DNA of 64,000 nucleotides from Escherichia phage A4 (ON286972); one strand, 5' to 3'. Positions 890 through 41,798 are shown, counted from the first letter of the stretch. Notes: generated by a model not told the origin, from the sequence alone. Translations and numbers: made by a program.

Positions 890-1102
890 ATGATAACTAT
901 CAATTACTTTTCACTATGCTTTGTTTATTTTGTTGTTGTATTTCTAGCAGTTGTAGCGTACAATAATATTAAATGTATATATAAAATTATCAAAAACAAA
1001 GAGAAATTCAATGGATGGATGATATATCACATTGTCATCTCGGTTGTGTGTATCTTATTTGTATACGATTTGAGTTCATTAGGTACAGTAGGTAAGCTAT
1101 GA
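890..1102 (+). CDS. small hydrophobic membrane protein
   Basis: 70-aa ORF, two hydrophobic segments; stop overlaps next start. Confidence 0.35.
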   Translation: MITINYFSLCFVYFVVVFLAVVAYNNIKCIYKIIKNKEKFNGWMIYHIVISVVCILFVYDLSSLGTVGKL

Positions 1103-1851: not shown

Positions 1852-2396
1852 TTCGAGAAGTACCTCTAGGTGAGTATGGTAAACGAGCAAACTTTGTATT
1901 CTGTTACTTCTTTGCTCGAAATTGTAACCCATATAAAGGTTATGAATTAAATGATATCCCTGTTGTGAATCTGGTATTACTCCAGCTTCGTTGGGATGGT
2001 TTACTGGGTGGTTGTGGTGGAACAGTCGAAGATACCGATGCCACCTTAGAAGATGCACTATTCCGTGAAATTCAGGAAGAGATGGATTATAATATTTTCA
2101 TCGAACAACTGAAACCATTGAAAACTTACGAACTATATCCTGGAGCACATACCCATAGCTATAGTTATGAAGTTACTTACGAAGAATTGAATGCGATTCG
2201 CGACGGATACAGTACTGCTAAACATGCAAGTGCAGAAGTGGCTGGTGTTAATTTATGTCACATTTCTCGTTATTCAAAGGGACAAAACCGAGAAGCAGGA
2301 TATAATAATCTTATGACACAAAACTTCATAGGAACTGCTAAAATGGAATTAGAACATCTTGTTCAATCCGAGAATTTACTGATTAGTTACTTATAA
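1848..2396 (+). CDS. Nudix-like hydrolase (degenerate Nudix box)
   Basis: GGTVEDTDATLEDALFREIQEE contains REIQEE signature of the Nudix box; start overlaps Sir2 stop. Confidence 0.45.
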   Translation: MIREVPLGEYGKRANFVFCYFFARNCNPYKGYELNDIPVVNLVLLQLRWDGLLGGCGGTVEDTDATLEDALFREIQEEMDYNIFIEQLKPLKTYELYPGAHTHSYSYEVTYEELNAIRDGYSTAKHASAEVAGVNLCHISRYSKGQNREAGYNNLMTQNFIGTAKMELEHLVQSENLLISYL

Positions 2397-3036: not shown

Positions 3037-3100
3037 GAAGTGTCTGAGTCTATAATCTACCGTAGAGCACAAGGATGTGCTCATAACTCAAGGATGTTTT

Positions 3101-4540
3101 ATGAAAAAATACACAATTGACACAAACGTACTACTATCCGATCCAAATGCAACTGTAGCATTTGATGGGGCAGCAGTGATTCTACCATTCACTGTTCTTG
3201 AAGAACTTGATTCAATCAAGAGCCGTAATGTTGACGTATCACGTGATGCACGTTTCGCAATCCGTAACATCGATGCAATTCTGAAAGATGCTACTCATGA
3301 AGAAATCAGCAGTACTGGTGTTAATATTGCCAATATCCACAAAAATATGGATGCATCCAGTAAGCTATTCGTTATGACGAATGAAGAAGCTGAAGCACTT
3401 ATTCGTATGGGCGGCAGTGAAGATAAAGTAGAAACTCTACTTAAAAGTACTGTACCAGATGACAAAATCATTCTAGTGGCTTTGGCATCACAATCAGTAC
3501 TGGTAACTCGCGACATTAACATGCGTATCAAAGCAATGAGCTACGGTGTTGAGGTACAAGATTACCGTCATGACGTTGCAATCGAAGATAGTGAGTTGAT
3601 TCATATTGGTCAGCACCACCTTGATATTGATTTCTGGAAAACATTCAGTGAAGTTAATAATGCTGAAATTAAATCCCAACAAGAAGGTCGCCGTCTATAT
3701 CACTATATTCCAACCGCATTGATTCAAGATGTTCTACCAGATAATCTATGTATTGGTGATTATCTATATGATAATGCTGATGTACTATTCGTATACGAAG
3801 GTCAATCTGCTATCGAAGAAGAAGACGGTTCACTAACACCTGAAGATATTTTGGTATTCCAGGATATTGGTCAAAGTATCGCTCTTCGTGCTAAAGTTTG
3901 GGATATTAAAGCAAAGAATATTCAACAGGCACTAGCAATTAACAGTATTCTTGACCCTGATGTACATTTGACAGTACTACTCGGTTCAGCAGGTACTGGT
4001 AAAACATTGATTACTGTTGCTACTTCACTCGAATTAGTGCTGGAAAAACGTAAATACGATCGTATAATCTTCTCCAAAACACAAGATTCTCAATTTGAAG
4101 AAATTGGTTTCTTGCCTGGTTCTGAAGCTGAGAAGGTCATCCCATTCTGTGGGGCTGCAATTGATGCACTAGAGTATCTACACAAAGACGATGCTAACCC
4201 ACAAGGTAGTATTGAAGAGATTCTCAAACGTAACGTAATGCAGTTTAAAGCATTGAACTTTATTCGTGGTCGTTCTTTTACTAATACAATTCTAATTGTT
4301 GATGAATTCCAGAACATCACCCCTGCACAGGCAAAAACTATTCTTACCCGTGCAGGTCAAAACTGTAAGGTTATCATTATGGGTAACTTAGCACAGATTG
4401 ATAGTAAGTTTATTAGTCCAGTTAATAGTGGTTTGACATATGTAACTGAAAAATTCAAAGATTGGGAAGGGTGTCGTATCATTGAATTGGAAGGTGTTGT
4501 ACGTTCTGCACTTGCAGAGTTTGCAGAAGAAAATATGTAA
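3101..4540 (+). CDS. phoH: PhoH-like ATPase with N-terminal PIN-like domain
   Basis: Walker A GSAGTGKT, Walker B IVDEFQN; N-terminal ~130 aa PIN-like; start moved to ATG 3101 (MKKYTIDTN) with AAGGA upstream. Confidence 0.7.
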   Translation: MKKYTIDTNVLLSDPNATVAFDGAAVILPFTVLEELDSIKSRNVDVSRDARFAIRNIDAILKDATHEEISSTGVNIANIHKNMDASSKLFVMTNEEAEALIRMGGSEDKVETLLKSTVPDDKIILVALASQSVLVTRDINMRIKAMSYGVEVQDYRHDVAIEDSELIHIGQHHLDIDFWKTFSEVNNAEIKSQQEGRRLYHYIPTALIQDVLPDNLCIGDYLYDNADVLFVYEGQSAIEEEDGSLTPEDILVFQDIGQSIALRAKVWDIKAKNIQQALAINSILDPDVHLTVLLGSAGTGKTLITVATSLELVLEKRKYDRIIFSKTQDSQFEEIGFLPGSEAEKVIPFCGAAIDALEYLHKDDANPQGSIEEILKRNVMQFKALNFIRGRSFTNTILIVDEFQNITPAQAKTILTRAGQNCKVIIMGNLAQIDSKFISPVNSGLTYVTEKFKDWEGCRIIELEGVVRSALAEFAEENM

Positions 4541-4547
4541 TCTATTA

Positions 4548-4576
4548 TTGACATTAAATGTGTTCATTGCTATAAT
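4548..4576 (+). promoter_or_regulatory. sigma70-type promoter (TTGACA-17-TATAAT)
   Basis: TTGACA 4548-4553, 17-bp spacer, TATAAT 4571-4576, ~30 bp upstream of ORF 4609. Confidence 0.55.
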
Positions 4577-7779: not shown

Positions 7780-8139
7780 ATGAGTGATTATGTTGCATTC
7801 CTACATCGTTTTGGTAAAGCTGAAGAAAAGCACATCATTCGTCTACCAGCTTATGGTGAGAAAGACTGGTACAAAAGTACTATCAGCGTAGGTGCATTCC
7901 GTGACCGTGAAGCTGAATTCTTTCTCGGTAAGCAACATGAACGAGCAGTACTTTGCTCCCTTTGGCGTTTAGACGAATGGGATGAAGAGAATGCAAGAAC
8001 TGCGGTATCAATGCTTAAAATTGTTGGCATTGCAAACTATCAGCACCCATATGATCTATTACCTACGTTTACCCATGCTTCATTGTTTGACTTTTATAAA
8101 GCAATCGGGTATGATTATAAAAAGAAACGTTATATCTGA
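7780..8139 (+). CDS. hypothetical protein
   Basis: 119-aa ORF. Confidence 0.45.
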   Translation: MSDYVAFLHRFGKAEEKHIIRLPAYGEKDWYKSTISVGAFRDREAEFFLGKQHERAVLCSLWRLDEWDEENARTAVSMLKIVGIANYQHPYDLLPTFTHASLFDFYKAIGYDYKKKRYI

Positions 8140-8149
8140 GGATCAATCC

Positions 8150-8953
8150 ATGTCGAATCCAATCTGTAAGCATTGTTCAAAAACTAAATTCTACCATGAA
8201 CCACATACATTGAAATGTCCTAAACCTTCTCGTTCTCTTCTCGTCACTTATGAAGATGTTAATGTATATGATGAAGTAGTTTCTGAACCAAACGTTTTAG
8301 TTATTCCAGAAATCAATCAAACCGTAAGTACATTACTAGATTGGAAAGAACAGATTACCAATGTAGATGATTTTGTTATTCCGTTACATGACAAACAATG
8401 GGTTTTTGATACGATTTATAAAAATGCCGATGTTGATTGTGAAGAAGAAGCAGATGACCTAAAATGTGCATTAAACAATTGTGATGGAACTGTCGTTTTA
8501 GGTAAACCGGATACTGCAAATGATGGAACTTATCTAATGTTTGGTATGAAAACCAATATCGGTGAACTTGAAGATGATTATTGCCTTCTTGATAATATTA
8601 CATTAATAGAATGGAGTAAGCTTTCTAATTTAGAATTGATTGAAATTGGCACTTTTGAAAGTCATATGGATATTGATGAAAGTAAGAATAAAGGTATTAA
8701 TGCCTTTATGTCTGAAGTTATTGGGCGTTCATTGTATAGTCCCGATTCCGTTGATATCAAAACGACTGCTGATTGTAAAGCATTCCTAAAGCAAGAATAT
8801 GATGTTGAAAAAGCAAAACGCATTAAAAAAGAAAAATGGGGTCAAATCGAATACCGCTTATTTGAATCAGATGAAGGTAGACATTACACCTTAGTATCGT
8901 ATAACGATAAACTAATTTCTCATTACGCTTTTGCATATAACGAAGACTACTAA
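8150..8953 (+). CDS. hypothetical protein with N-terminal Cys-rich segment
   Basis: start moved to ATG 8150 (MSNPICKHCSK) with GAGGA 7 nt upstream; track ORF from 7982 overlaps previous gene. Confidence 0.5.
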   Translation: MSNPICKHCSKTKFYHEPHTLKCPKPSRSLLVTYEDVNVYDEVVSEPNVLVIPEINQTVSTLLDWKEQITNVDDFVIPLHDKQWVFDTIYKNADVDCEEEADDLKCALNNCDGTVVLGKPDTANDGTYLMFGMKTNIGELEDDYCLLDNITLIEWSKLSNLELIEIGTFESHMDIDESKNKGINAFMSEVIGRSLYSPDSVDIKTTADCKAFLKQEYDVEKAKRIKKEKWGQIEYRLFESDEGRHYTLVSYNDKLISHYAFAYNEDY

Positions 8954-8997
8954 TAGTTCAGTACTGTCCATGTGGCAGTACTTTTTATGGAGACTAT

Positions 8998-9615
8998 ATG
9001 ACTACATCACAAAAGTACTGGTGGATTTTGGGACACCCTGAATTTATCAATAAAGACTACGTTGATGCTCGCATTGATGTTGAGCCACACGATGTATGTC
9101 CCATCACAAATCGAATTGAAGATTATCCGGCCCTGAATACAAAAACACAGTACTGGATCGAAATGCTAACTCCGTTTTTCGATGAAGACGAAGGGAAGTT
9201 CGTTCGTGGACATGAGTACGAGTTGGATTGTGGTGGTGATACATATGAAGAAGCAATTGATAATTTATACACCAAGATCCTAGAAAAGTACGGTGATTAC
9301 ACACAAGAAGAAGCGGAAGCTAAGTATGATGCTGTACATCAGCGTGTAGTGACGAAAAGTGCTTTTCCTTCATCAATGTTCCAACCAGAAGAACTTCGTA
9401 ACACATGGGAGAACTCAAAATTATCTGAAATTGAACGTGATTATATTCCAGGTGATATTGAAAACATTAAAGGTACAATAAAAGCCTTGAAAGAATTCCT
9501 CAAAACTTGTACAATAGAAGAACAAGAAGAGGCAAACAAACATTTACAATCCGAGGAATGTAAACTATGGGTGCTTGAGGAATCACTTAGAAAAGGCATA
9601 GACTACAACATATGA
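8998..9615 (+). CDS. hypothetical acidic protein
   Basis: 205-aa ORF; followed by hairpin using AGTACTG arms at ~8958-8990 upstream. Confidence 0.45.
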   Translation: MTTSQKYWWILGHPEFINKDYVDARIDVEPHDVCPITNRIEDYPALNTKTQYWIEMLTPFFDEDEGKFVRGHEYELDCGGDTYEEAIDNLYTKILEKYGDYTQEEAEAKYDAVHQRVVTKSAFPSSMFQPEELRNTWENSKLSEIERDYIPGDIENIKGTIKALKEFLKTCTIEEQEEANKHLQSEECKLWVLEESLRKGIDYNI

Positions 9616-20246: not shown

Positions 20247-20276
20247 AAGCCTGTCTATTGACAGGCTTTTCTTTTA
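20247..20276 (+). terminator. rho-independent terminator
   Basis: 9-bp stem AAGCCTGTC/GACAGGCTT, 4-nt loop, T-rich tail. Confidence 0.55.
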
Positions 20277-20286
20277 TCCGTATAAT
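20258..20286 (+). promoter_or_regulatory. sigma70-type promoter (TTGACA-17-TATAAT) overlapping terminator hairpin
   Basis: TTGACA 20258-20263, 17-bp spacer, TATAAT 20281-20286. Confidence 0.5.
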
Positions 20287-20308
20287 GCTAAAAAACTAGG
20301 AGGAAACT

Positions 20309-20869
20309 ATGGTACAATCACGTTTTAGACCACCGCTGTCACCAGCACAGTTACAACGTTTAAAAGAAAAAGAGCAGCACTTTCAGAATACCCTAGTAGT
20401 TCGTTTGCTATGCAAAAGTGTAACTCTTAAAGATTTTGTGAAAACCGATAATGATCGTAAATCACTTATCGAACTTAAGTACAAGTTAAGTAAGCATAAA
20501 CTATATGGATTACTGGCAGAATACACCCAAAATCCATTCAGTGATCGTTGGTCTATGGTTCAAAAAAAACTGTGGGGTGGTGATGAAGAATTCATACTAC
20601 GCGATTTAAAAAATGCAATCATGTTTAAGGTTGAGTATACACCAGCAGGGATTGAACACAGAACCGAAGAAACTATCATTCAATCAAGAGATTTGTCATG
20701 TGTTGTTTCTTCAAACTTCGGTGTTCATTATGATATGCTTGATGATGATGAGTTAATGATTCTGTTCCATGTCATTATTGGTGCTGAAGATATTAAAGAA
20801 AAGTTATCACAAATTGAAGAAGAACAGCGTAAATTCAAAATCCAAAAGAGAATAACTGATTTATATTAA
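20309..20869 (+). CDS. hypothetical protein, paralog family member 1
   Basis: shares K[ST]D[NE]DR[KR]..L..K..LS[KS]H motif and C-terminal L.LFH with next two genes. Confidence 0.5.
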   Translation: MVQSRFRPPLSPAQLQRLKEKEQHFQNTLVVRLLCKSVTLKDFVKTDNDRKSLIELKYKLSKHKLYGLLAEYTQNPFSDRWSMVQKKLWGGDEEFILRDLKNAIMFKVEYTPAGIEHRTEETIIQSRDLSCVVSSNFGVHYDMLDDDELMILFHVIIGAEDIKEKLSQIEEEQRKFKIQKRITDLY

Positions 20870-20878
20870 GAGGTTACT

Positions 20879-21379
20879 ATGTTTTTCAAAAAGAAAAATA
20901 ATGATCACAAAAGAGAAAATGTAGAGTGGTGTACATTAATTCTTCCAGTACTGATGAAAAGCTATTCTTTAAAAGAAATTATCCGTACTGATGAAGATCG
21001 TAGAACTATACTTAAAATTAAAGAAATGTTAAGTTCTCATTCTCTAATGAAACTAATCACAGACCTAGTTAAAGAACCATACGGTGAACGTTGGTTATAT
21101 GAACCAGTATTCATATATGGTAATCATATCAACCGTGTAAAATTGTTTGATACCGAAACTAAGGTTGATTTTAATGCAGTAACATATTCATCTAAAGATT
21201 ATGATGAAAAACATACATTTGTTTATATTAACGGAGATGCGAATATTCTACCTAAACATGAACAAATGTTTTTGTTTCATTTACTCGTTGCACTTCGTGA
21301 GCTTGAAACAAAGTACAAGAAGTTAGAATACGAGCAGCATAAACTTAATGAATTTAATAAATTAAAAGGATTATACTAA
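20879..21379 (+). CDS. hypothetical protein, paralog family member 2
   Basis: RTDEDRRTILKIKEMLSSH motif; tandem to paralogs. Confidence 0.5.
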   Translation: MFFKKKNNDHKRENVEWCTLILPVLMKSYSLKEIIRTDEDRRTILKIKEMLSSHSLMKLITDLVKEPYGERWLYEPVFIYGNHINRVKLFDTETKVDFNAVTYSSKDYDEKHTFVYINGDANILPKHEQMFLFHLLVALRELETKYKKLEYEQHKLNEFNKLKGLY

Positions 21380-21882
21380 TGTTCTTCGGTAAACATAAAG
21401 TAAAAGATGATGGTATTCTTCAGTACTTAGTTGCGTTGATTTTAAACAAAAGTACTTTATTAGTACCTAATATTAAATCAGACAAAGATCGCAGAGAAAT
21501 TATTCAAAACAAATATCTTCTTTCAAAATGTGATCCTGTTATCTATGCATTTTGTAAGTACTGTTCAAAAAACTTGTTCAGTATTCATGTAGATTTTGAA
21601 AGACACGAGAGTAGAACAGATTCTAGGATCAACGTGTATATAATTAATGATTTAAATCGAGGGAATCGAGGGTTCATGTTCTGGATGGACGGACGTGATA
21701 TACGTGTGCGTATTAAAATGTCGGTTGGGTGGAAGGATTTTTCAACTTCTGTATCTGATTATCTTGTACTTCACGCACTATATAACAGTATTACTAACGT
21801 GAAAGATATCGACAAGAAAATTCAGGAACAAAAAGAACTGGATGATGCAAAGAACGAATACTTACAATATTACAGGAGTTAA
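21379..21882 (+). CDS. hypothetical protein, paralog family member 3
   Basis: KSDKDRREIIQNKYLLSKC motif; tandem to paralogs. Confidence 0.5.
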   Translation: MFFGKHKVKDDGILQYLVALILNKSTLLVPNIKSDKDRREIIQNKYLLSKCDPVIYAFCKYCSKNLFSIHVDFERHESRTDSRINVYIINDLNRGNRGFMFWMDGRDIRVRIKMSVGWKDFSTSVSDYLVLHALYNSITNVKDIDKKIQEQKELDDAKNEYLQYYRS

Positions 21883-21885
21883 TAT

Positions 21886-22287
21886 ATGGATCTTGATGAT
21901 GTGTATAGCACCATAAGACAGATGGATTCGTATAAAAAAGTATATAGTGGTTACAAGAGTGATAAACAATTTTATGGAATCGGGGAGTATGATGTAATAT
22001 CATTCGAATACGATGATACTGGTGAAAGTTCCATTAATATTGTTTGCCCTCGTGACCGTGAAAATAACTTCATGTACGTTGAAATCAATAATGATGGTTT
22101 ACACTTTACTAAAATATTAAATGGTGGCAAACAATCTATTTCTCTGGATTTATCCGAAGAAGAAAAGTTCTTTCAAGAAGATACTATAATCAATCTTGGT
22201 TTTAGTTTATCAGAATACAAAGTTCTTCATAAAGATTTCATGAAGTACTATAATGGGTTTCTTAAGGAGCTAACATTACATCTATGA
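21886..22287 (+). CDS. hypothetical protein
   Basis: 133-aa ORF. Confidence 0.45.
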   Translation: MDLDDVYSTIRQMDSYKKVYSGYKSDKQFYGIGEYDVISFEYDDTGESSINIVCPRDRENNFMYVEINNDGLHFTKILNGGKQSISLDLSEEEKFFQEDTIINLGFSLSEYKVLHKDFMKYYNGFLKELTLHL

Positions 22288-23525
22288 ATAATAACAAATT
22301 TCTTGAACAAACAATTGTGAAGCACTTAGCAGGTTCACAAGCGTATGGAACCAGTACACCTGAAAGTGATACGGATTATCGTGGTATTTTTCTTGCTAAC
22401 AAAGAATTCATCCTTACGCCTTTTTATAATGTAAAGGAAGTTTCTGATTCAAGAGAAGAAGATACTAAATTCTATGAACTAAACCAGTACTTAAGACTAT
22501 ACACAGAGGCTAACCCAAATATCCTTGAATCACTATGGGTCGATCCTGAACACATCGTAGAAAGTACTGAGATCTATGATTATCTACGCACTTTCAATCA
22601 ACAATTGCTTAGCTCAAAGATTGCACACTCTTATACTGGTTATGCCTATAATCAGGTTAAGCGTATGTCTAATCACCACGGGTGGATGGATAAAGAGCGT
22701 ATTGCTGAAAAACGTCTAAATGAAATCTTAGAAGATTTTCCAGTAGATGAAACTTTAGCATGGATGTATGAAAACTTCCCACACTATTTGGTAGAACGTT
22801 TAGATACTTCTAAACTACATCCATTTAATGCTAAGAAAATAGATTTTGAAAAATACATGCGTGATACTTCATTGCAGTTAGTTTCAACTAATCCGTTGAA
22901 ACAGTATCATTTTGTACGTTTAGTACATAATTACAGTACTGATAAAGTACTAGACCGTGATTTCAACTTATTGGATTATAACAATGGGTACGAATTAATT
23001 CATTACGGTGAAAATATCTTTGGTGTTATTATCAATCCTAATGAAAGTACAGTTAACGCGGATGGTTCTTTACGTTATTTCAACAAAGAACGCAGTACTG
23101 AAGAATTGAAAGTACGACCTGAACTCATTGTTAAATTCAATGAAAAAGAATACAGTGAGAACAGTGAGAACCGTAAAAGTTATCACAAATGGAAAGAGAA
23201 TCGTAATGCTAAACGTGCAATTCTTGAATCCAAACACGGCTACGATTGCAAACATGCTATGCATACGATCAGACTTTTGAATACAGCCGAAGAAGCATTA
23301 CAAAGCGGTATTATTCTGGTGAAACGTCCTGATGCTGATATGCTAATGGATATTCGCAACGGTAAGTGGAAATATGAAGAAGTCATGGAGTACTTTAACG
23401 ATAAGGTAAAATATATTCGTGAAGTACTTTATCCTAAGTCAGTACTCCCGAAGAAACCAGATATTGCATTAGCTGCGAAAGTACTGTTAGATATTCGCGA
23501 AATGCAGTGGTACGGTAAGAAATAG
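22284..23525 (+). CDS. Pol-beta-superfamily nucleotidyltransferase-domain protein
   Basis: N-terminal GSQAYGTSTPESDTDYRG fits GS-x(9-13)-DxD nucleotidyltransferase signature; 413 aa. Confidence 0.45.
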   Translation: MNNNKFLEQTIVKHLAGSQAYGTSTPESDTDYRGIFLANKEFILTPFYNVKEVSDSREEDTKFYELNQYLRLYTEANPNILESLWVDPEHIVESTEIYDYLRTFNQQLLSSKIAHSYTGYAYNQVKRMSNHHGWMDKERIAEKRLNEILEDFPVDETLAWMYENFPHYLVERLDTSKLHPFNAKKIDFEKYMRDTSLQLVSTNPLKQYHFVRLVHNYSTDKVLDRDFNLLDYNNGYELIHYGENIFGVIINPNESTVNADGSLRYFNKERSTEELKVRPELIVKFNEKEYSENSENRKSYHKWKENRNAKRAILESKHGYDCKHAMHTIRLLNTAEEALQSGIILVKRPDADMLMDIRNGKWKYEEVMEYFNDKVKYIREVLYPKSVLPKKPDIALAAKVLLDIREMQWYGKK

Positions 23526-24240: not shown

Positions 24241-27024
24241 ATGACAAAATATAACATAGATAACGTTATACAATTACTTTATGGTCATCATAGATTTTTA
24301 GAAAGAAATACAGGTGATACAGTAGATCCAACAAAACAGCATTACGTAATAAACGATCAAGGTGTATTAGCAAATAACCGTCATTTTATTAATTTCAGTG
24401 CAATGGAAGGTCAACCAAATGGTGACGGGACAACTGAGGGTCAAAGTCTTTTGATCATTGGTTATATCTATGCTTATCTTGCAACTAATGATGAAATGTT
24501 TTTGGATAAAGCTAAGTATTATTGGGACGCATATCACAAATATTTTTATGCTAATAGACAGTTTCCAGATCCACCACGTCCATTACAATGTAACTGGATT
24601 GTGAATGCTAAAGAACCAATACTCGCCAACTGGCCTTTGTCAGATGATGATTGGCCTACTCACGGTGGATTCAAAGGCGTAGAATTTAATTTCATAGATG
24701 GTCAATGTCGTATTCCACATGATGAGCCGTATTATGGACAATTCCTTGATAAAGTTACTTTTGCATTCAAAGGTGCACTTGCATGGAATCAGATTAACGC
24801 GTCAGTACAGGCAATATTACCAGATGGTAGTACTGACTGGGATAACCCTGGTGAACAATATGATGTTGATTGGGTAATTGATTACTTAGGACGTAAAGTA
24901 GATTATAATGGGGATATTATCAGTACTGGACACTATGAGTCAGAAAAAGGAACAGTACAGGTAAAAGACAGAACATTAAATGGTGTTTATAAATTAAACT
25001 TCGCTAATAGACAACCTGTTGAATTTGGTGGTACGTACATCGCACGTAATCAGATGCAACACAACCGTCCATTACATGTTCCTATTACTCTTGACTTTGC
25101 TGATAACGCATCTGATGCTGAATTATGGTTCAGTGATGCTTCTTACTTGTTATATAAAATAACAAAGGAAAGAAAACATTATCTTGGATGGAAATGTTCT
25201 TTACTTACTTGTTATGCATATGGTGACATTGATGCATTTGATAAATTCTTCAGACAAAGTACTAAAGTATCTTCGCCATTTACTGATGGTATTTCATATG
25301 ATTATTTTTATCCAAGTGATGCGATTGCTACATATTCCCGCAACGTTGATGGTTATATCAGAATACGTCAGGAACAAAGTGCACAAAGTACTCTTGAACA
25401 GCAAGCAATATGGTTCAGACTAAATTCTGATTCGAAATTGGTTGTTGATTATGGTGGAATATGTGATGATGGTTCTCCATTAACATTTAAGCCAGTACTT
25501 GACTTATCAAAAACAAAAAGTGATAATGATGCTATAAGATACCGTTGTGGTTTACCACTGAGTACCAGTACTGAAATTAAACACTCTGAAACTCCATTAA
25601 GTGTTTTTGTCCGTGAGAAGAAAGATGATGGTAGCTCTTATATTATGGCTGACAGCCGTTCAGTTGTTGATTATGGGGGAGCCGTATATAAAATGGAATA
25701 TAGTACTGATATTCTTGGTTCCAGAGTTGATACTATATGCGATATCAGTACTGGTGAAGACGGTGGTATAGTTGTAGGATTTTGGTTATTAGATTCAGAA
25801 AAAGCACCTATTAATTCTTTTACATATCGTTCATATGAAGATGATTTTAATATCAGAATCGAAGATGATAATGGATGGCGTTGGTGGTGGATGATTCCTG
25901 CAACACATGGTGAATGGACCACAATAGAATTGAAACCAGAGGATTTACATCTTTCTGGATATCAGCCAAATCACAGCGATGATCCTGACCCAGAAGCCCC
26001 AGTATATAGTGAATTGGAAGATTTCACTCTATTACCCGATACAACACCAATCAATGGAACTGCTAAAATCCAATGGTATTGTATAAATGATATTCCACCA
26101 CTATATACATCCGAAAATGGCGATGACTATACAATGACATTCTCTATTACTGTTTCTGGAACAGCAGCATATTCGGCGTATTTGGGGGATTGTGTAATTA
26201 AAGATTATGAATTAAATTCGTTACGTTACACTCCTGGTACTATTCCATTTTCAAATATTACTGATCCATATGCAAATCAGTACGGTGGGTGGCGTGGACT
26301 ACCATATCCTGGATACCAATACCCAGTAATTTACTGCTTTAAAGACGAACCAGTAGACCATACAAGAATGGGTAATATGTTGGATTTTATGAAAGATTCA
26401 CAAGAATGGTTTACAAACCAATTCGGTACAGTTGGTCCTTGTGCACAGGCATATGTATGGAACCGCTGGGACAACCTCAAATATGGTGAACCTGATACGT
26501 TTACAATGTTACACTGGGGTGATGAAGCATGGAGTGGATATGAACCACGTGCATTCTTTGGTGCGGCTCGTTGCTGGCAAGAATTAGCAGAGCGTGGTGA
26601 AGAACCACCAGTTGAATTGGTTGAGTTCTGTGAGAACTGGATTAACTTTTTAATTCAATTCCAGGATGAAAATGAAGGTCGTTCACCAACAATCTTTAAT
26701 AAAGATGGAACAGTTGAAGGCCCAGCATGGGATTTCACAGGACATATGTGTGGATTGTGGTTGGCAGGTGGTAGTGCATGTGGCTTAGCTGGGTGCAAGA
26801 TTGAACGCTTACCAGAAATGGTTGACAGATTGGTTGATGAATTGCAAAATAACTATGTAATAACAAAACCAGGTTCACCGATGAACGGCTCATGGAGTCC
26901 AGCAGTTCGAGAAGATTCAGACAATGGGATGTTCTTTGGATTTTGGGCTGGTGAAATCATGCGTGGTCTTGGTTTGTACTCAATGTACAGACTGAACTCA
27001 CACAATCGTTATAGTGAATTATAA
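24241..27024 (+). CDS. large hypothetical protein (927 aa), Trp/Tyr/Asp-rich
   Basis: start set at ATG 24241 (MTKYNIDN) rather than overlapping track start 24190. Confidence 0.45.
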   Translation: MTKYNIDNVIQLLYGHHRFLERNTGDTVDPTKQHYVINDQGVLANNRHFINFSAMEGQPNGDGTTEGQSLLIIGYIYAYLATNDEMFLDKAKYYWDAYHKYFYANRQFPDPPRPLQCNWIVNAKEPILANWPLSDDDWPTHGGFKGVEFNFIDGQCRIPHDEPYYGQFLDKVTFAFKGALAWNQINASVQAILPDGSTDWDNPGEQYDVDWVIDYLGRKVDYNGDIISTGHYESEKGTVQVKDRTLNGVYKLNFANRQPVEFGGTYIARNQMQHNRPLHVPITLDFADNASDAELWFSDASYLLYKITKERKHYLGWKCSLLTCYAYGDIDAFDKFFRQSTKVSSPFTDGISYDYFYPSDAIATYSRNVDGYIRIRQEQSAQSTLEQQAIWFRLNSDSKLVVDYGGICDDGSPLTFKPVLDLSKTKSDNDAIRYRCGLPLSTSTEIKHSETPLSVFVREKKDDGSSYIMADSRSVVDYGGAVYKMEYSTDILGSRVDTICDISTGEDGGIVVGFWLLDSEKAPINSFTYRSYEDDFNIRIEDDNGWRWWWMIPATHGEWTTIELKPEDLHLSGYQPNHSDDPDPEAPVYSELEDFTLLPDTTPINGTAKIQWYCINDIPPLYTSENGDDYTMTFSITVSGTAAYSAYLGDCVIKDYELNSLRYTPGTIPFSNITDPYANQYGGWRGLPYPGYQYPVIYCFKDEPVDHTRMGNMLDFMKDSQEWFTNQFGTVGPCAQAYVWNRWDNLKYGEPDTFTMLHWGDEAWSGYEPRAFFGAARCWQELAERGEEPPVELVEFCENWINFLIQFQDENEGRSPTIFNKDGTVEGPAWDFTGHMCGLWLAGGSACGLAGCKIERLPEMVDRLVDELQNNYVITKPGSPMNGSWSPAVREDSDNGMFFGFWAGEIMRGLGLYSMYRLNSHNRYSEL

Positions 27025-27055
27025 GTTGACAACCAACAAACAGTGATATAAACTA

Positions 27056-27087
27056 AGAGAACTTCATGAGAGGTTCTCTTTTTTTTA
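27056..27087 (+). terminator. hairpin + T8 run (terminator or 5' leader structure)
   Basis: AGAGAAC..GTTCTCT stem then TTTTTTTT; a TTGACA-15-TGaTATAAA promoter-like site lies just upstream (27026-27052). Confidence 0.4.
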
Positions 27088-27099
27088 TAAGGTGAAAAA

Positions 27100-27525
27100 A
27101 TGCTAAACGAACAAATCAAAGACGCACTACGTGTACTGAATCGCGAAGTTAGCCGTATCCATAAAAGTACTGATCGTTATAAAGTAATGCATGAAATTAA
27201 ACTAGAATTAGAAGCTATCAATAAGGGTGAATGGTTCCTTGAACCAGAATACCGTACACGTGAACCATCTGACGTTGAAAAAGCAATTGCAAAATTCATT
27301 TCTGGTCGTTATAGTGATGTATCAGAGAAAGATGTACTGATGAATTTACATTTAACCTCCTTAGAAATTGAAGAAAAATTCAAATTTGATTCACTGGACT
27401 GGGTAGAAATGATCATGGAACTTGAAGATGAATTTAAGGTTGAGATCGAAGATAAGTATGAATCAGGTGATACCAGAATCGTACATCTCGTAGCACATGT
27501 ACAAACAATGATCGATAAACGATAA
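27100..27525 (+). CDS. acyl carrier protein-like protein with N-terminal extension
   Basis: FDSLDWVEMIMELEDEFKVEIED closely parallels ACP [23 protein letters not shown] incl. phosphopantetheine Ser. Confidence 0.5.
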   Translation: MLNEQIKDALRVLNREVSRIHKSTDRYKVMHEIKLELEAINKGEWFLEPEYRTREPSDVEKAIAKFISGRYSDVSEKDVLMNLHLTSLEIEEKFKFDSLDWVEMIMELEDEFKVEIEDKYESGDTRIVHLVAHVQTMIDKR

Positions 27526-27570
27526 TTTTCAGCACTCTAAATAATATCATCATCTATAGGAGATATTATT

Positions 27571-27945
27571 ATGAGTGTACTAGATATTATTGTTTCAAAA
27601 GTACTGATACCGTTCTGGAAACCAATTGCGTTTGTTCTCCTGATGGCATCATGTACTTTTGGAGGCTGGAAGGCTAATACTTTTTATACTGGGTATAAAG
27701 AAAGTATTGAATTAAAAATAGAGAAGAAAGTAGATGCGGCTTTAAGTAAAATTGAAAGCCAAAATACCAAAAACTATGTAGAAACTAAACAGATAATGCA
27801 AAATAATGCAAAGGTAATAGAAACTAAAGTACCAGTTATTATTGAGCGTGAAGTGTATAGAAATGTATGTTTAGATGAAGAAGGGGTAAAACTTTTGAAT
27901 GATCTAAAACAAAATTCACTTGCAGCTAGAGAGAAATTTAAATGA
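27571..27945 (+). CDS. putative i-spanin (Rz-like)
   Basis: N-terminal TM segment, predicted coiled-coil remainder; overlaps downstream lipoprotein gene. Confidence 0.4.
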   Translation: MSVLDIIVSKVLIPFWKPIAFVLLMASCTFGGWKANTFYTGYKESIELKIEKKVDAALSKIESQNTKNYVETKQIMQNNAKVIETKVPVIIEREVYRNVCLDEEGVKLLNDLKQNSLAAREKFK

Positions 27946-28256
27946 AATACATATTAACATTCTTGATTACTTTTATGTTTATCACTGGGTGTTCTAATAA
28001 GGTTCCAGTTCAAGCGTCACCAATAATCACCCAGGAAATATTATTAGAACGATGCGAAGAAGATACACCAATTCCTAAAAAAATTGTTGTTGACTCACAT
28101 GGTAATAGAGGATATGCTGGTGATGAAATTCTTAACGTTCTGACGCGTTGGGATTCCATGTACAATGATTGTGCACTGAGATATGATGCACTAATTGATA
28201 CAATTCGCAAACTCCAAGACCAAAATATTCGTGTTAACATAAAAGTTAAGGAATAG
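27942..28256 (+). CDS. putative o-spanin (Rz1-like outer-membrane lipoprotein)
   Basis: signal peptide with lipobox ITGC; start overlaps upstream TM gene. Confidence 0.45.
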   Translation: MKYILTFLITFMFITGCSNKVPVQASPIITQEILLERCEEDTPIPKKIVVDSHGNRGYAGDEILNVLTRWDSMYNDCALRYDALIDTIRKLQDQNIRVNIKVKE

Positions 28257-28257
28257 T

Positions 28258-28869
28258 ATGTCTAAATATCATGTTTATTATGTAACCAAATTGAGTTTAC
28301 TAGATGAACTCAATCATACTAGTACCAAAATGAAACGTTATACTTATAATGGTATTACTTTCAGATACTTTCCACAAAAAGTACTAACATTCGTTAAGAA
28401 TTGTAAGTGCATTGCTTGTGGCATCGAGGCTACAGAAGTTCGAATCGAACGTTCCAACTGTAGTGATCCGGTATATGGTAAACCGCATTTAAATGTGTAT
28501 GCAGTATGTGGTCTTTATGAAGTTATGATGACTGTAGATCATAATCATCTTGCATCTAAAGGTGGTGCTGATTTGGAGTCAAACTTTAATACAATGTGTG
28601 CGAGATGTAATCAGTTGCGTTCAAATAAAACTGAAACGGTTGATGAATTCCTTGAGAAAGTCAAAAACCGAAATCTACTTGAAGAACATATGAATCGTTA
28701 TTTCAATAAGATTGAGAAGGAAAGTAAACGTCCTACACCAGAAATGCTCGAAGAACGTAGATTGCGTCAAGAGCTATGGGATAACGATCATCTGTGGCAT
28801 GTTCGTGAGTACGGGCGACACATGAAAGCATTAAAAAAGGCACAAAAGCTGTTGGATAAACATGAGTAA
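28258..28869 (+). CDS. HNH endonuclease
   Basis: VDHNHLASKGGADLESNFNTMCARCNQLRSNK (HNH core) plus upstream CxxC. Confidence 0.6.
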   Translation: MSKYHVYYVTKLSLLDELNHTSTKMKRYTYNGITFRYFPQKVLTFVKNCKCIACGIEATEVRIERSNCSDPVYGKPHLNVYAVCGLYEVMMTVDHNHLASKGGADLESNFNTMCARCNQLRSNKTETVDEFLEKVKNRNLLEEHMNRYFNKIEKESKRPTPEMLEERRLRQELWDNDHLWHVREYGRHMKALKKAQKLLDKHE

Positions 28870-37643: not shown

Positions 37644-37976
37644 ATGCTAAATCTAGTTATTCAAGGTAATGTTGATATTACTCCAGCAATCCATGACGCA
37701 ATTCATCAAGAAGCAAACACTCTAAATAAATTTAGTGATTCTTCAGTACTGAATATTGGTGTTCATGTGAAAAAAGAGCATAAGACACAGTACGCAGTAA
37801 CTTTAACATCAGGTGGTAAGTCTGTTACTGCCGATGATGCAGATTTATACAAGGCGATTGTCGATTCATTCGAAAAAATGGAAACTGTATTCAGTAAAGA
37901 CAAAAGCATTAAATTGCACCGCCGAAACCATCCAGACCGTCCAGTTGTAGTTGATGTAACTGACGAAGAAGAGTAA
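37644..37976 (+). CDS. hypothetical protein
   Basis: 110-aa ORF, AAGGAAGGTGA ribosome-binding site. Confidence 0.45.
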   Translation: MLNLVIQGNVDITPAIHDAIHQEANTLNKFSDSSVLNIGVHVKKEHKTQYAVTLTSGGKSVTADDADLYKAIVDSFEKMETVFSKDKSIKLHRRNHPDRPVVVDVTDEEE

Positions 37977-39621: not shown

Positions 39622-40689
39622 ATGTATAAATTTTATTTTAATGAAAATAACGAGAAGGTATATTTCCATGAAGAATTAGGTATGCGTTTCGAATGGATGC
39701 GTCCCGAAGATTTATCACCAAAATTAATTAAAACATCAAAAACACCTAAAGAACATTTTGATGAAATAATAGAAAAAGGATATAATATTTTAGGATTTGC
39801 TATAACATCAAGTGATGAATGGAAATCTAGTTTTACAAGAACTGTTGTTGAAAAAGATGGTATTATATATACAAAAAGAAATATAAATGATATAAAAACG
39901 AAAGGTATGAAATATATCATTGGGAAATATGACAATGAAAATTATAGATATTATCTTTATAAGACTTCAAAAAGTCTAATGACTGGTGAATGTGAATTAC
40001 TTTTAGAACAACCAATAATTAAAGATAAAAGAACCAAATTAACTTATAAATGCTTAAAATGTGGTCACGTTGATGAAATGGAAATTAGTAATATACAAAG
40101 TGGTCAGGGTTGCTCTATTTGTCGATTTGAAAAAACCAGATTAGCACACGCATTCACCACCGCTGAATTTGTTGAACGAGCAAAAGAAATTCATGGTAAT
40201 GTATATAACTATTCAAAAGTCATCTACATTAATAGTAGCACTCATGTTGAAATAATTTGTAAAAAACATAATAATTCTTTTTATATCATTCCAAATTTTC
40301 ATATAGCAAAAAATAAAAATCAAGGTTGCCCAATATGCTCATCTGAACATACTGAATCCAGAGCTAGTAGAGAAATAACACGTTTTTTAATTGAAAATGG
40401 TATAAAATTTAATAAAGAACAAACATTTAGTGACTGTAAAAATAAAATGTTATTAAGATTTGATTTTTATTTGGTTGATTATGATATTTGTATTGAGTAT
40501 GATGGTAAACAACATTTTGAGAAATCACCTCATTGGGGTGGAGAAGATAAATTGAAAAACATCAAGGATAACGATACTATAAAGACACAATATTGTGAAA
40601 AGAATTTTATTAAATTAATACGTGTAACATATTATGAAGACCACTTAACTGTATTAAAAAAACATCTTTCAGAGGAAGGTATATTATGA
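39622..40689 (+). CDS. Zn-ribbon protein with C-terminal endonuclease-like domain (possible free-standing homing endonuclease)
   Basis: multiple CxxC pairs; C-terminal RFDFYLVDYDICIEYDGKQHF resembles PD-(D/E)xK/DUF559-type motif; gene markedly more AT-rich than neighbours. Confidence 0.35.
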   Translation: MYKFYFNENNEKVYFHEELGMRFEWMRPEDLSPKLIKTSKTPKEHFDEIIEKGYNILGFAITSSDEWKSSFTRTVVEKDGIIYTKRNINDIKTKGMKYIIGKYDNENYRYYLYKTSKSLMTGECELLLEQPIIKDKRTKLTYKCLKCGHVDEMEISNIQSGQGCSICRFEKTRLAHAFTTAEFVERAKEIHGNVYNYSKVIYINSSTHVEIICKKHNNSFYIIPNFHIAKNKNQGCPICSSEHTESRASREITRFLIENGIKFNKEQTFSDCKNKMLLRFDFYLVDYDICIEYDGKQHFEKSPHWGGEDKLKNIKDNDTIKTQYCEKNFIKLIRVTYYEDHLTVLKKHLSEEGIL

Positions 40690-41798
40690 AAAAGTATTTG
40701 GTGGGCGGCTATGTGAGGGACCGTTTAATGGGTATTCGTACAAAAGACAAAGATTATGTCATTGTCGGTGCTACCGAATCCGATATTAAGTACTTACAAA
40801 GTATTGGCTATAAGCAAGTAGGTAAGGATTTTCCCGTGTATCTAAGTCCAGAGGGTAATGAGCACGCATTGGCCCGTACCGAACGTAAAACTGGTACTGG
40901 TTACGGTGGCTTCGAAGTGAATACTAAAGGCGTGACACTAGAGCAAGATCTATACAGAAGGGATATTACGGTAAATAGCATAGCGTATGATCCAGTACTG
41001 CAAATTCACATCGACCCATACGGTGGTAAAGCTGATATCAAGAATAAAGTACTACGCCATGTATCCGAGCACTTCAAAGAAGATCCATTACGTGTATTAC
41101 GTCTAGCTCGCTTTGCTACGCGTTATTCTGATTTCTCTATACACGAGACTACTGAAGCACTTGCAATCGATATGGTAGCGTCTGGTGAGCTAAATCACCT
41201 TGTTCCAGACCGTGTTTATGTTGAATTTGAAAAAGCACTGTCAGAAGAAAAGCCAGCTAAGTTCCTTAAAACACTAAGTAAGTTGGGTTACTATGAAAAA
41301 GCATTTAATGCAACATTAACCAAAAAGTCATTGGAACTCATTGATCATATCTCTGATAATTGTACTGAAGCATATAAGCCATATTTCTTATGGTCTGTGC
41401 TTCTTGAGAAAGAAGAAGTTGGTGAGGATTCAGTACTGAATGGTGCTATTAAAATGCCCGTTAAGTACGTTAAATTCAGTAATTACATCAAACGTTTCCG
41501 TGATGATATCAAGGCATTCCGTAAAAAGACCCCAAATGAAATGGGACAATTATTACTGGATATGAATATCAAGAATAACGGCGGTGAAGAATTCCTTTAC
41601 AAAGTACTGGAATATTTTATTCTACGTAAAGAGATTGATTTAGACCTTGAAGATTTAATCATTAAGGTATATGATCGTTACACTGATGTAGTACTTCCAG
41701 ATATTCAACAACTGGTAAAAGACGGTGAGTTAGAAGCATCTGAAATCCGTGATTTTGTTTCAGATTTACGTTGTGAAGCAATTCAACAAATGTTTTAA
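40686..41798 (+). CDS. tRNA nucleotidyltransferase (CCA-adding enzyme) family protein
   Basis: N-terminal GGYVRDRLMG..DKDYV head-domain motif. Confidence 0.65.
   Translation: MKKYLVGGYVRDRLMGIRTKDKDYVIVGATESDIKYLQSIGYKQVGKDFPVYLSPEGNEHALARTERKTGTGYGGFEVNTKGVTLEQDLYRRDITVNSIAYDPVLQIHIDPYGGKADIKNKVLRHVSEHFKEDPLRVLRLARFATRYSDFSIHETTEALAIDMVASGELNHLVPDRVYVEFEKALSEEKPAKFLKTLSKLGYYEKAFNATLTKKSLELIDHISDNCTEAYKPYFLWSVLLEKEEVGEDSVLNGAIKMPVKYVKFSNYIKRFRDDIKAFRKKTPNEMGQLLLDMNIKNNGGEEFLYKVLEYFILRKEIDLDLEDLIIKVYDRYTDVVLPDIQQLVKDGELEASEIRDFVSDLRCEAIQQMF

What the first reader, a model, noticed from the sequence alone, without database searches (positions are those of the whole stretch)
22284..23525. 413-aa nucleotidyltransferase-domain protein
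The N-terminus has a GS-x10-DxD signature (GSQAYGTSTPESDTDYRG) typical of Pol-beta-superfamily nucleotidyltransferases, followed by ~350 aa of unassigned sequence. Such enzymes in phages include RNA-repair, tRNA-modifying and signalling-nucleotide enzymes, and a CCA-adding enzyme is also present (40686-41798).
Basis: partly seen in the sequence, partly recalled or inferred. Interest (0 to 1): 0.45.

Follow-up and report, generated by a model that had tools for sequence, protein, structure and literature searches.

The report
Phage RlaP-type RNA-end nucleotidyltransferase, long form
This jumbo-phage gene encodes a member of the known RlaP family, enzymes shown in bacteria to add one or two nucleotides to broken RNA ends, here with an extra 180-residue insertion; it is an ordinary, already annotated kind of phage gene that probably helps mend tRNAs cut by host defences.

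Summary
It is under strong purifying selection (dN/dS 0.04 against phage PBECO4).

[quoted passage not shown] Orthologues in PBECO4/121Q-type coliphages are already annotated "nucleotidyltransferase".

An AlphaFold model (pLDDT 93) shows an N-terminal nucleotidyltransferase (NTase) domain with catalytic D29, D31 and D60, and a C-terminal HEPN-like helical domain (K323/H327/R330). A ~180-aa insertion (aa 131-310), absent from canonical RlaP, splits the two.

A 2025 preprint shows that Pseudomonas RlaP adds 1-2 NMPs to RNA 3'-OH ends and helps restore over-trimmed tRNA. The relative PBECO4 encodes T4-type polynucleotide kinase and RNA ligase 1, which by synteny lie just outside this window. A CCA-adding-type enzyme sits at 40686-41798.

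The most likely role is a tRNA-repair accessory against anticodon nucleases. This is inferred, not shown. The long form is biochemically untested and is not operon-linked to a ligase.

Verdict: new member of a known kind, low interest.

The parts
22284..23525 (+). Complete ORF (413 aa plus stop): long-form RlaP-family nucleotidyltransferase
   Evidence: ORF list and translation. PF10127 E=2e-17. phrog_388 E=1e-76 over the full length. dN/dS 0.044 against PBECO4 gp066.
22284..22673 (+). N-terminal Pol-beta NTase domain plus first part of the connecting helix (aa 1-130)
   Evidence: Matches Pfam RlaP profile positions 25-144 of 249. hhalign against canonical short RlaP paralogues gives probability 98%, E=2.8e-13 over aa 11-129. 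The AF2 model shows the alpha/beta NTase core. 38% identical to bacterial L071 residues 94-221.
22332..22337 (+). G17-S18 of the NTase signature
   Evidence: Invariant in 52 homologues.
22368..22376 (+). D29-T30-D31, first two metal-binding carboxylates (DxD)
   Evidence: D29 and D31 are invariant. They align to the 'DSDvDLrG' block of the canonical RlaP HMM.
22461..22463 (+). D60, candidate third catalytic carboxylate
   Evidence: Invariant. Lies on strand 61-65 of the model. Aligns to the conserved D of the canonical RlaP HMM ('elD'). The catalytic role is inferred.
22674..23213 (+). Insertion relative to canonical RlaP (aa 131-310): helices, then a four-stranded beta subdomain (strands 211-216, 236-242, 245-250, 281-285)
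   Evidence: In L071 the segments homologous to query 2-130 and 311-405 are contiguous, and L071 matches PF10127 end to end. No Pfam hit for this part alone. Predicted with high confidence. Only a non-significant hit (E=0.41) to a PD-(D/E)XK-like protein, 9iab.
22689..22883 (+). Extra ~60-aa helical sub-insertion (aa ~136-200) seen only in the ~410-aa forms (jumbo phages and a few others)
   Evidence: Gap in the ~345-360-aa homologues in alignment A1.
23214..23522 (+). C-terminal helical (HEPN-like) domain of RlaP (aa 311-413)
23250..23273 (+). K323-H-A-M-H327-T-I-R330, the most conserved helix of the C-terminal domain; probable NTP/RNA-binding residues
   Evidence: K323, H327 and R330 are invariant. 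They align to 'K-x-L-Y-a-y-R' of the canonical RlaP HMM, weakly but in four independent phage homologues. The binding role is inferred.
23247..23249 (+). C322, the site where homologues carry an intein (between D321 and C/T322); unoccupied here
   Evidence: P0094, P0121, P0123, P0129 and P0143 have 275-350-aa intein-like insertions at exactly this point.
20258..20286 (+). Perfect sigma-70 consensus promoter (TTGACA-17-TATAAT), probably heading the five-ORF block that ends with the NTase
   Evidence: 12 of 12 match. Two such sites occur in the window against 0.04 expected. It is followed by the Shine-Dalgarno (SD, ribosome-binding) sequence AGGAGG (20298-20303) and the ATG at 20309. Function is inferred from consensus only.
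20309..22287 (+). Four small upstream ORFs (186, 166, 167 and 133 aa), packed head to tail with the NTase. The last one overlaps the NTase start (ATGA at 22284-22287), and AAGGAG lies at 22264-22269.
   Evidence: ORF list. Sequence. No Pfam hits. They evolve fast: 33-60% identical to the PBECO4 counterparts, against 87% for the NTase over aligned residues. They are not conserved next to the Yersinia phage or CR3 homologues.
40686..41798 (+). Context only: class II CCA-adding / poly(A) polymerase family enzyme, a second RNA 3'-end NTase of the same phage
   Evidence: Pfam PolyA_pol head (E=1.8e-18) and PolyA_pol_RNAbd (E=1.8e-7). The PBECO4 orthologue gp033 is annotated tRNA nucleotidyltransferase.

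Best explanation
The gene encodes a long-form member of the RlaP family (Pfam PF10127), a template-independent RNA 3'-end nucleotidyltransferase. D29, D31 and D60 in the N-terminal Pol-beta domain would hold two divalent metals, probably Mn2+. The C-terminal helical domain (K323, H327, R330, R348, R358) would close the cleft that holds the NTP and the RNA 3' end. The enzyme would add one or two NMPs to a 3'-OH RNA end.

In the infected cell it most likely acts as an accessory step of T4-type tRNA repair. The sequence would be: a host anticodon nuclease cuts a tRNA and, as RloC does, trims off a nucleotide; the phage polynucleotide kinase/phosphatase makes 3'-OH and 5'-P ends; RlaP puts nucleotides back; and the phage RNA ligase 1 seals the loop. 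The gene is probably transcribed early by host RNA polymerase, from a consensus sigma-70 promoter, together with four small ORFs. The 180-aa insertion between the two domains is specific to this subfamily. Its role is unknown; I guess substrate (tRNA) recognition.

Shown here: family membership, conserved catalytic residues, predicted fold, purifying selection, and the presence of Pnkp, Rnl1 and a CCA enzyme in the phage lineage. Inferred: the RNA substrate, the number of nucleotides added, the metal, cooperation with the ligase, and the anti-defence role.
For: Family and fold:
- PF10127 scores 64 bits against a cut-off of 23. phrog_388 matches the full length, E=1e-76.
- G17, S18, D29, D31, D60 and the C-terminal block W303...R358 are invariant in 52 homologues.
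- Phage NTases of canonical size align over both domains.
- The bridging homologue L071 is homologous to the query's N- and C-terminal parts (E=3e-22 and 8e-10) and matches the RlaP profile at positions 7-248 of 249.
- T4 NrdC.11, placed in the RlaP network by the preprint, aligns to both ends of the query.

Biochemistry of the family:
- RlaP needs a 3'-OH RNA and adds 1-2 NMPs. It prefers nicked-tRNA mimics and Mn2+.
- Its products were ligated by T4 Rnl1, and treatment raised aminoacylation of a tRNA that had lost one nucleotide (PMC12776372).

Lineage and context:
- RlaP was reported as the most prevalent repair NTase of jumbo phages, with a distribution that mirrors RNA ligases (PMC7824862).
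- PBECO4 encodes a Pnkp (34% identical to T4 PseT, E=2e-42) and an Rnl1 (36% identical to T4 RnlA, E=4e-58), 37-40 kb from its RlaP gene.
- A CCA-type enzyme is in the window. Distant homologues lie 2-3 kb from CCA-adding or Thg1 genes.
- dN/dS is 0.044. A consensus promoter heads the block.
Against: - No member of the long form (phrog_388 type) has been assayed. The only biochemistry is on two short Pseudomonas enzymes, in a preprint that is not peer reviewed and calls the repair role 'potential'.
- The C-terminal half does not match the Pfam profile directly. A direct profile-profile comparison is not significant (E=0.029).
- The 180-aa insertion could change the substrate.
- No RNA ligase or kinase gene lies in the 64-kb window: tblastn with T4 PseT and RnlA was negative, and Pfam scans of about 30 of the larger ORFs found none.
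- None lies within 5 kb of the homologue in 80 bacterial loci.
- The ligase and kinase were seen in a relative at about 80% DNA identity, not in this phage itself.
- The T4 nrdC.11-mobD.3 segment can be deleted without loss of viability in the laboratory (PMC9825161), so any role is conditional.
Confidence: 0.6

Rival explanations
1. It is the same enzyme class but works on the acceptor (3') end of tRNAs rather than on broken anticodon loops. It would rebuild or prime 3' ends trimmed beyond the CCA, so that the phage CCA-adding enzyme can finish them.
For: A CCA-adding-family enzyme is encoded in the window. In Cronobacter phage CR3 the homologue lies 2 kb from a tRNA nucleotidyltransferase. 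In Yersinia phage fHe-Yen9-04 it lies 3 kb from a Thg1-type tRNA-His guanylyltransferase, another tRNA-end repair enzyme. Pseudomonas RlaP also labels full-length tRNAs and single-stranded RNA 3' ends.
Against: In the preprint the enzyme preferred the 3' end inside the nicked anticodon loop over the acceptor end of the same tRNA mimic. Untemplated addition of any of the four NMPs would rarely rebuild a correct acceptor stem. In this window the two genes are 17 kb apart.
Confidence: 0.15
2. It nucleotidylates something other than RNA: a small molecule such as an antibiotic or metabolite, or a protein (AMPylation). Examples are kanamycin/lincosamide NTases, DrrA, GlnE, and MNT antitoxins that AMPylate HEPN toxins.
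Against: These are fold-level matches at 5-16% identity. The sequence profile places the protein in PF10127, not in those families. Pseudomonas RlaP labelled RNA but not E. coli proteins or DNA. The HEPN Rx4-6H motif is not conserved: H318 varies as H/F/Y/N.
Confidence: 0.07
3. It synthesises a free oligonucleotide or nucleotide signal, like Hailong HalB oligo-dA or CD-NTase products. A phage version might use this to mimic or jam a host defence signal.
Against: There is no sequence-level similarity to HalB: a profile search of PDB sequences found nothing. There were no PADLOC hits. CD-NTases gave Foldseek probabilities below 0.1. RlaP needs an RNA primer and stops after 1-2 additions.
Confidence: 0.05
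4. It is a host shut-off factor that tails host tRNAs or rRNAs and so inactivates them, as MenT-type NTase toxins do. On this reading it is not a repair enzyme.
For: Adding an extra nucleotide to intact or correctly nicked tRNA is expected to lower its function; the preprint itself discusses this. The gene probably has an early sigma-70 promoter.
Against: The family co-occurs with repair enzymes rather than with antitoxins. The same subfamily is widespread as a chromosomal gene in bacteria without an obvious immunity partner. It is unrelated in sequence to MenT.
Confidence: 0.05

Closest known systems
RlaP (Pfam PF10127) of Pseudomonas fluorescens / P. aeruginosa (Carruthers, Fatma and Huang, bioRxiv Dec 2025, PMC12776372)
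   Same: Same Pfam family. Same GS...DxD...D catalytic set. Same layout of N-terminal NTase plus C-terminal helical domain. The expected chemistry is addition of 1-2 NMPs to an RNA 3'-OH.
   Different: The Pseudomonas enzymes are short forms encoded inside RtcB-RtcA operons. This protein has a ~180-aa insertion between the two domains, matches only the first half of the Pfam profile directly, and is not next to any ligase gene. Its likely partner ligase is a 5'-P ligase (Rnl1 type), not RtcB.
Phage T4 NrdC.11 (336 aa, function unknown; placed in cluster 5 of the RlaP similarity network by the preprint)
   Same: It is a phage-encoded RlaP relative in a phage that also has Pnkp and Rnl1. It aligns collinearly to query residues 9-152 (29% identity) and 309-378 (27% identity). 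It too matches only Pfam profile positions 24-142.
   Different: It is a different subfamily, with E=8e-20 to the A1 profile against about 1e-195 for true orthologues. Its middle region is shorter and different. It is deletable in T4.
phrog_388 / 'nucleotidyltransferase' of Asteriusvirus (PBECO4 gp066, 121Q gp506), Eneladusvirus, Vequintavirinae and other phages
   Same: These are orthologues: 85-88% identical in Asteriusvirus, 58-60% in Salmonella phage Munch and Yersinia phage fHe-Yen9-04, and 34-38% in ~145-kb phages. In PBECO4 the gene order is the same.
   Different: None of substance. The window's copy is simply a new allele; the nearest database protein, P0001, is 96% identical.
Hailong HalB and kanamycin nucleotidyltransferase (nearest solved structures)
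   Different: Only 10-18% identity with no profile-level similarity. The substrates differ (free oligo-dA synthesis; aminoglycosides), and there is no HalA-like partner.

Membership tests
RlaP (PF10127) | Scores above the curated Pfam gathering threshold | tested here: met
   64.2 bits against a cut-off of 23, E=2e-17, covering residues 15-132 and profile positions 25-144 of 249.
RlaP (PF10127) | Pol-beta NTase catalytic set: G-S, DxD and a third carboxylate | tested here: met
   G17, S18, D29, D31 and D60 are invariant in 52 homologues. All align to the conserved columns of a canonical RlaP HMM.
RlaP (PF10127) | C-terminal helical domain homologous to that of canonical RlaP, forming the cleft with the NTase domain | tested here: met
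   The evidence is indirect. Query 311-405 is 32% identical (E=8e-10) to the C-terminal half of L071, which matches PF10127 at positions 7-248 of 249. Short phage NTases align over both domains. The model shows the helical bundle. Direct tests are weak: there is no Pfam hit for the C-terminus alone, and hhalign gives E=0.029.
RlaP (PF10127) | Gene lies in the same operon or neighbourhood as an RNA ligase (the origin of the name; true of only part of the family) | tested here: not met
   No Rnl1 or Pnkp homologue is in the 64-kb window, and there was no ligase family among about 30 ORFs scanned. None lies within 5 kb in 80 bacterial loci. Co-occurrence at genome level is met in the relative PBECO4, where Rnl1 and Pnkp lie 37-40 kb away.
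RlaP (PF10127) | Adds 1-2 NMPs to RNA 3'-OH, Mn2+-dependent | not testable with these tools
   Known only for the P. fluorescens and P. aeruginosa enzymes.
CD-NTase / cGAS-DncV-like signalling enzymes | Profile or fold match to CD-NTases, with a CBASS-type context | tested here: not met
   No PADLOC hit. CdnE and CdnC gave Foldseek E about 1 and probability below 0.1.
MNT-HEPN toxin-antitoxin modules | Minimal NTase, plus a HEPN domain with a conserved Rx4-6H RNase motif | tested here: not met
Class II CCA-adding enzyme / poly(A) polymerase (PF01743) | PolyA_pol head domain | tested here: not met
   There is no PF01743 match for this ORF. The family is present in a different ORF, 40686-41798.
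Hailong HalB | Sequence-level relation to HalB and an adjacent HalA effector | tested here: not met

The most novel reading that the evidence does not exclude
The ~180-aa insertion may be a tRNA-recognition module that steers the enzyme to broken anticodon loops. It is found only in the long-form subfamily, is well conserved, and contains a small alpha-beta-beta-beta-alpha-beta unit with a non-significant resemblance to PD-(D/E)XK proteins. On this reading the long-form phage RlaP is a dedicated counter-defence against nucleotide-excising anticodon nucleases such as RloC. That would supply a step missing from the classical T4 Pnkp-Rnl1 pathway. It might also explain why bacteria often pair a long form with a short canonical RlaP in tandem.
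Probability: 0.25. Interest if true: 0.55.

Novelty: new member of a known kind. Interest (0 to 1): 0.2.

Why it matters
tRNA cleavage is now recognised as a common anti-phage strategy: PrrC, RloC, PARIS, retron Eco7 and others (PMC12409363). Phages answer it with their own tRNAs and with repair enzymes.

RlaP is the least understood part of that repair kit. If the phage long form really restores nucleotides removed by "smart" nucleases, it would explain how large phages survive defences that simple ligation cannot reverse. It would also give a testable phage gene for that function.

As it stands, the gene is an expected, already annotated component of PBECO4/121Q-type jumbo phages. The finding adds a subfamily assignment and a domain map rather than a new kind of system.

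Tried and rejected
- NCBIfam and PADLOC scans gave no hits.
- Sequence searches of PDB chains found nothing related, with the single protein and with the 52-sequence profile. The PfRlaP crystal structure is evidently not in the copies at hand.
- Pfam scans of the C-terminal part (aa 286-413) and the middle part (aa 133-300) alone found nothing.
- hhalign of those parts against canonical short RlaP was not significant.
- ARAGORN found no tRNA genes in the window.
- tblastn with T4 PseT and RnlA found nothing in the window.
- Clustering the neighbours in 80 bacterial loci gave no conserved partner other than a tandem paralogue. The next most frequent 'family' was an antisense-ORF artefact of GC-rich genomes.
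- The supplements of the jumbo-phage review and of the UE-S1 paper are not held. The Burroughs and Aravind 2016 paper that named RlaP is not held either, so its definition is taken from the two papers that cite it.
- I considered and rejected CD-NTase, Cid1/TUTase, MNT antitoxin, antibiotic NTase and HalB membership; the reasons are in the membership table.

Full report
**Observation.** The ORF at 22284-23525 (+) exists as described: ATG start, 413 codons, TGA stop. The N-terminus reads ...LAG17S18QAYGTSTPESD29TD31YRG..., which is GS-x10-DxD. This is not a chance motif.
- Pfam PF10127 (RlaP, "RNA repair pathway DNA polymerase beta family") matches at E=2e-17, 64 bits against a curated cut-off of 23.
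- phrog_388 ("nucleotidyltransferase") matches residues 3-412 at E=1e-76.
- NCBIfam and PADLOC give nothing.
- Against the PBECO4 orthologue, dN/dS is 0.044 with synonymous sites near saturation, so the reading frame is under strong purifying selection.

**Where the window comes from.** The DNA is about 80% identical to PBECO4/121Q-type E. coli jumbo phages (Asteriusvirus) and has the same gene order.
- The protein is 85-88% identical to their "nucleotidyltransferase" (PBECO4 gp066, 121Q gp506).
- It is 58-60% identical to homologues in Salmonella phage Munch and Yersinia phage fHe-Yen9-04.
- It is 34-38% identical to homologues in ~145-kb Vequintavirinae-type phages.
- Its N-terminal third also finds T4 NrdC.11.
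- The closest database protein is 96% identical (P0001).
- An exhaustive HMMER scan of 1.84 billion cluster representatives finds 6,909 relatives at E<=1e-3 and 468 at E<=1e-30.
- A scan of bacterial genomes finds at least 546 loci with a ~350-aa form, mainly in cyanobacteria, myxobacteria and planctomycetes.

**Anatomy.** In a 52-sequence alignment (A1) the invariant residues fall into two blocks.
- The first block is G17, S18, Y21, G22, S28, D29, D31, R33, G34, D60, N77-P78-N79 and E82.
- The second block is W303, R307, N308, R311, E315, K323, H327, R330, R348, D350, R358 and G360.

The AlphaFold2 model is confident (pLDDT 93.3, pTM 0.83). It shows, in order:
- an alpha/beta NTase core (aa 1-110);
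- a long helix (113-151);
- a helical segment (155-210);
- a small four-stranded beta unit (211-285);
- a C-terminal helical bundle (287-410).

No close solved structure exists in the libraries at hand.
- Foldseek against the PDB gives only weak hits (E>=0.02), all of them NTases: kanamycin NTase, Hailong HalB, LinB and MNT.
- Against predicted viral structures, phage NTases of 232-290 aa align across the whole span of the query with TM-scores of 0.63-0.76 normalised to the target.

**Is the C-terminal half the RlaP helical domain?** Pfam matches only profile positions 25-144 of 249. The same is true of T4 NrdC.11. The C-terminal 128 residues alone hit nothing in Pfam, and a direct profile-profile comparison with canonical short RlaP is collinear but not significant (E=0.029).

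The link comes through an intermediate. A planctomycete homologue (L071) is 38% identical to query 2-130 (E=3e-22) and 32% identical to query 311-405 (E=8e-10). These two segments are contiguous in L071, and L071 matches PF10127 at positions 7-248 of 249 with 131 bits.

A canonical-RlaP HMM built here also supports the link. It aligns its conserved third-carboxylate column to D60. It aligns its "K-x-L-Y-a-y-R-v-l-l-t-g" helix to K323...R330, weakly but at the same place in four independent phage homologues.

So the protein is a canonical two-domain RlaP split by an insertion of about 180 residues (aa 131-310). Within the insertion, about 60 residues (136-200) occur only in the ~410-aa forms. 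The insertion has no Pfam match. Its only hit is a non-significant one to a PD-(D/E)XK-like protein (9iab, E=0.41). No acidic catalytic-type residues are conserved in it.

**What the family does.** I could not read the paper that named RlaP (Burroughs and Aravind 2016). Two papers that cite it describe the family.
- The jumbo-phage survey of Iyer et al. 2021 calls RlaP the most prevalent repair NTase of jumbo phages, with a distribution mirroring RNA ligases. It predicts that RlaP restores nucleotides removed by nucleases such as RloC before ligation (PMC7824862).
- A December 2025 preprint gives the first biochemistry (PMC12776372).

The preprint reports the following for P. fluorescens and P. 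aeruginosa RlaP:
- They label RNA but not DNA or protein.
- They require a 3'-OH and add one or two NMPs of any base, and also dAMP.
- They prefer Mn2+ and prefer the 3' end inside a nicked anticodon loop.
- After T4 Rnl1 ligation, RlaP treatment raises aminoacylation of a tRNA that had lost one nucleotide.
- The crystal structure is an N-terminal NTase domain plus a C-terminal helical domain forming a cleft.
- T4 NrdC.11 is placed in the same family network.

**Context.**
- The window has no tRNA genes.
- It has no T4-type polynucleotide kinase or RNA ligase 1, and Pfam scans of about 30 larger ORFs found no ligase.
- It does encode a class II CCA-adding/poly(A) polymerase-family enzyme at 40686-41798.
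- The relative PBECO4 has a polynucleotide kinase (gp125, 34% identical to T4 PseT, E=2e-42) and an Rnl1 (gp129, 36% identical to T4 RnlA, E=4e-58), 37-40 kb from its RlaP gene.
- The left edge of the window maps to about 67.9 kb of PBECO4. These two genes would therefore lie about 14-17 kb outside the window if synteny holds.
- Another Asteriusvirus paper mentions an RNA ligase and eight tRNAs (PMC12805682).
- In distant phages the homologue lies 2 kb from a tRNA nucleotidyltransferase (CR3) and 3 kb from a Thg1-type guanylyltransferase (fHe-Yen9-04).
- In 80 bacterial loci no ligase or kinase recurs beside it. In 25 of them the long form sits in tandem with a short, canonical, full-length PF10127 paralogue.
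- Only one RlaP-family gene is present in the window.

**Expression.** A perfect sigma-70 consensus (TTGACA-17-TATAAT) lies at 20258-20286. It comes directly after a terminator-like hairpin and 22 nt before the ATG at 20309, with AGGAGG between them. Two perfect sites occur in the window against 0.04 expected by chance.

From there, five ORFs follow head to tail. The last small ORF overlaps the NTase start (ATGA), and AAGGAG lies 14 nt upstream. Early transcription by host polymerase is therefore plausible but untested.

The four small ORFs have no family assignment. They diverge much faster than the NTase: 33-60% identical to the PBECO4 counterparts, against 87% for the NTase over aligned residues. 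They are not conserved beside the more distant homologues. They are probably not obligate partners.

**Most likely mechanism.** It is a template-independent RNA 3'-end nucleotidyltransferase. [quoted passage not shown] This would rescue tRNAs from which a host anticodon nuclease has also removed a nucleotide.
- I put family membership at about 0.95.
- I put the full functional statement at about 0.6. No long-form enzyme has been assayed, the insertion could alter the substrate, and the family's in vivo role is still a proposal.
- The T4 nrdC.11-mobD.3 segment is deletable in the laboratory (PMC9825161), which fits a conditional, defence-dependent role.

**Rivals.** The alternatives are acceptor-end repair together with the CCA enzyme, nucleotidylation of a protein or small molecule, HalB-like oligonucleotide synthesis, and tRNA tailing as host shut-off. 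The evidence for and against each is given in the Rival explanations section.

**Novelty and score.** The family is known, and its presence and predicted role in jumbo phages are published. Orthologues are already annotated as nucleotidyltransferases. What is added here is the subfamily assignment, the catalytic residues, the mapping of an uncharacterised 180-aa insertion, and the genome-level link to Pnkp and Rnl1. I rate it a new member of a known kind, interest 0.2.

Noticed in passing
window 23247-23249 (C322); homologues P0094, P0121, P0123, P0129, P0143: Many homologues (at least 10 of the top 150 cluster representatives are 660-763 aa) carry an intein-like insertion of 275-350 aa exactly between D321 and C/T322, in the most conserved C-terminal motif GYD|(C/T)KHAMH. 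The insertion has Cys1, a TxNH block, two LAGLIDADG-type motifs and an ending 'VVCFTVPN...GN' before C/T. P0094 has a weak Pfam LAGLIDADG_3 hit. The window's copy has no intein but has Cys at the +1 position where most homologues have Thr.
   Followed up: partly
bacterial loci L011, L014, L019, L034, L071, L085 and others (match at about 8001-9100 in most): In 25 of 80 bacterial loci the long-form gene sits in tandem with a short (~250-290 aa) canonical RlaP paralogue that matches PF10127 end to end. This suggests the two forms may work as a pair. No short paralogue is present in the phage window.
   Followed up: partly
window 20309-21882: Three tandem small ORFs (186, 166 and 167 aa) resemble one another. 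The first two are about 25% identical, and the second and third share the N-terminal 'MFF.K...' and a 'TD.DR' motif. They have no family assignment and are only 33-40% identical to their PBECO4 counterparts, so this is a fast-evolving paralogue cluster of unknown function.
   Followed up: partly
window 4548-4576 and 20258-20286: Two perfect sigma-70 consensus promoters (TTGACA-17-TATAAT) on the + strand, against 0.04 expected by chance. The second overlaps a bidirectional terminator-like hairpin at 20247-20268.
   Followed up: partly
window 39622-40689: A 355-aa ORF whose stop overlaps the start of the CCA-type enzyme gene. It has a treble-clef zinc-finger match (DUF4379, E=2e-7) and a weak CapR-homology match. 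In PBECO4 only small ORFs (gp034-036) are annotated at this position, so the gene may be specific to this phage.
   Followed up: no
window 1099-2396 and 3077-4540: A Sir2-family protein (1099-1851) is followed directly by a Nudt16-like Nudix hydrolase (1848-2396). A PIN-PhoH fusion protein lies at 3077-4540. These are candidate NAD+/RNA conflict genes.
   Followed up: no
window 37644-37976: A phage-encoded HPF/RaiA-type ribosome hibernation factor homologue (Ribosomal_S30AE, E=4e-10).
   Followed up: no
window 22845-23099 (about aa 188-272 of the NTase): The beta unit of the insertion gives a non-significant profile hit (E=0.41) to a PD-(D/E)XK endonuclease-like protein (PDB 9iab). Its predicted alpha-beta-beta-beta-alpha-beta order would fit that fold, but no catalytic D...(D/E)xK residues are conserved.
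   Followed up: no
Escherichia phage CMSTMSU MH494197.1, about 26966-28492: The orthologue in this relative appears split. The tblastn match comes in two pieces, and BFVD holds separate 432-aa and 134-aa proteins that are 84-92% identical to parts of the query.
   Followed up: no
window 57818-60621: An AAA-type ATPase ORF (weak Pfam matches) is followed by a DUF2201 putative metallopeptidase with a VWA-like domain (E=1e-35). This is a two-gene pair of unknown role in the phage.
   Followed up: no
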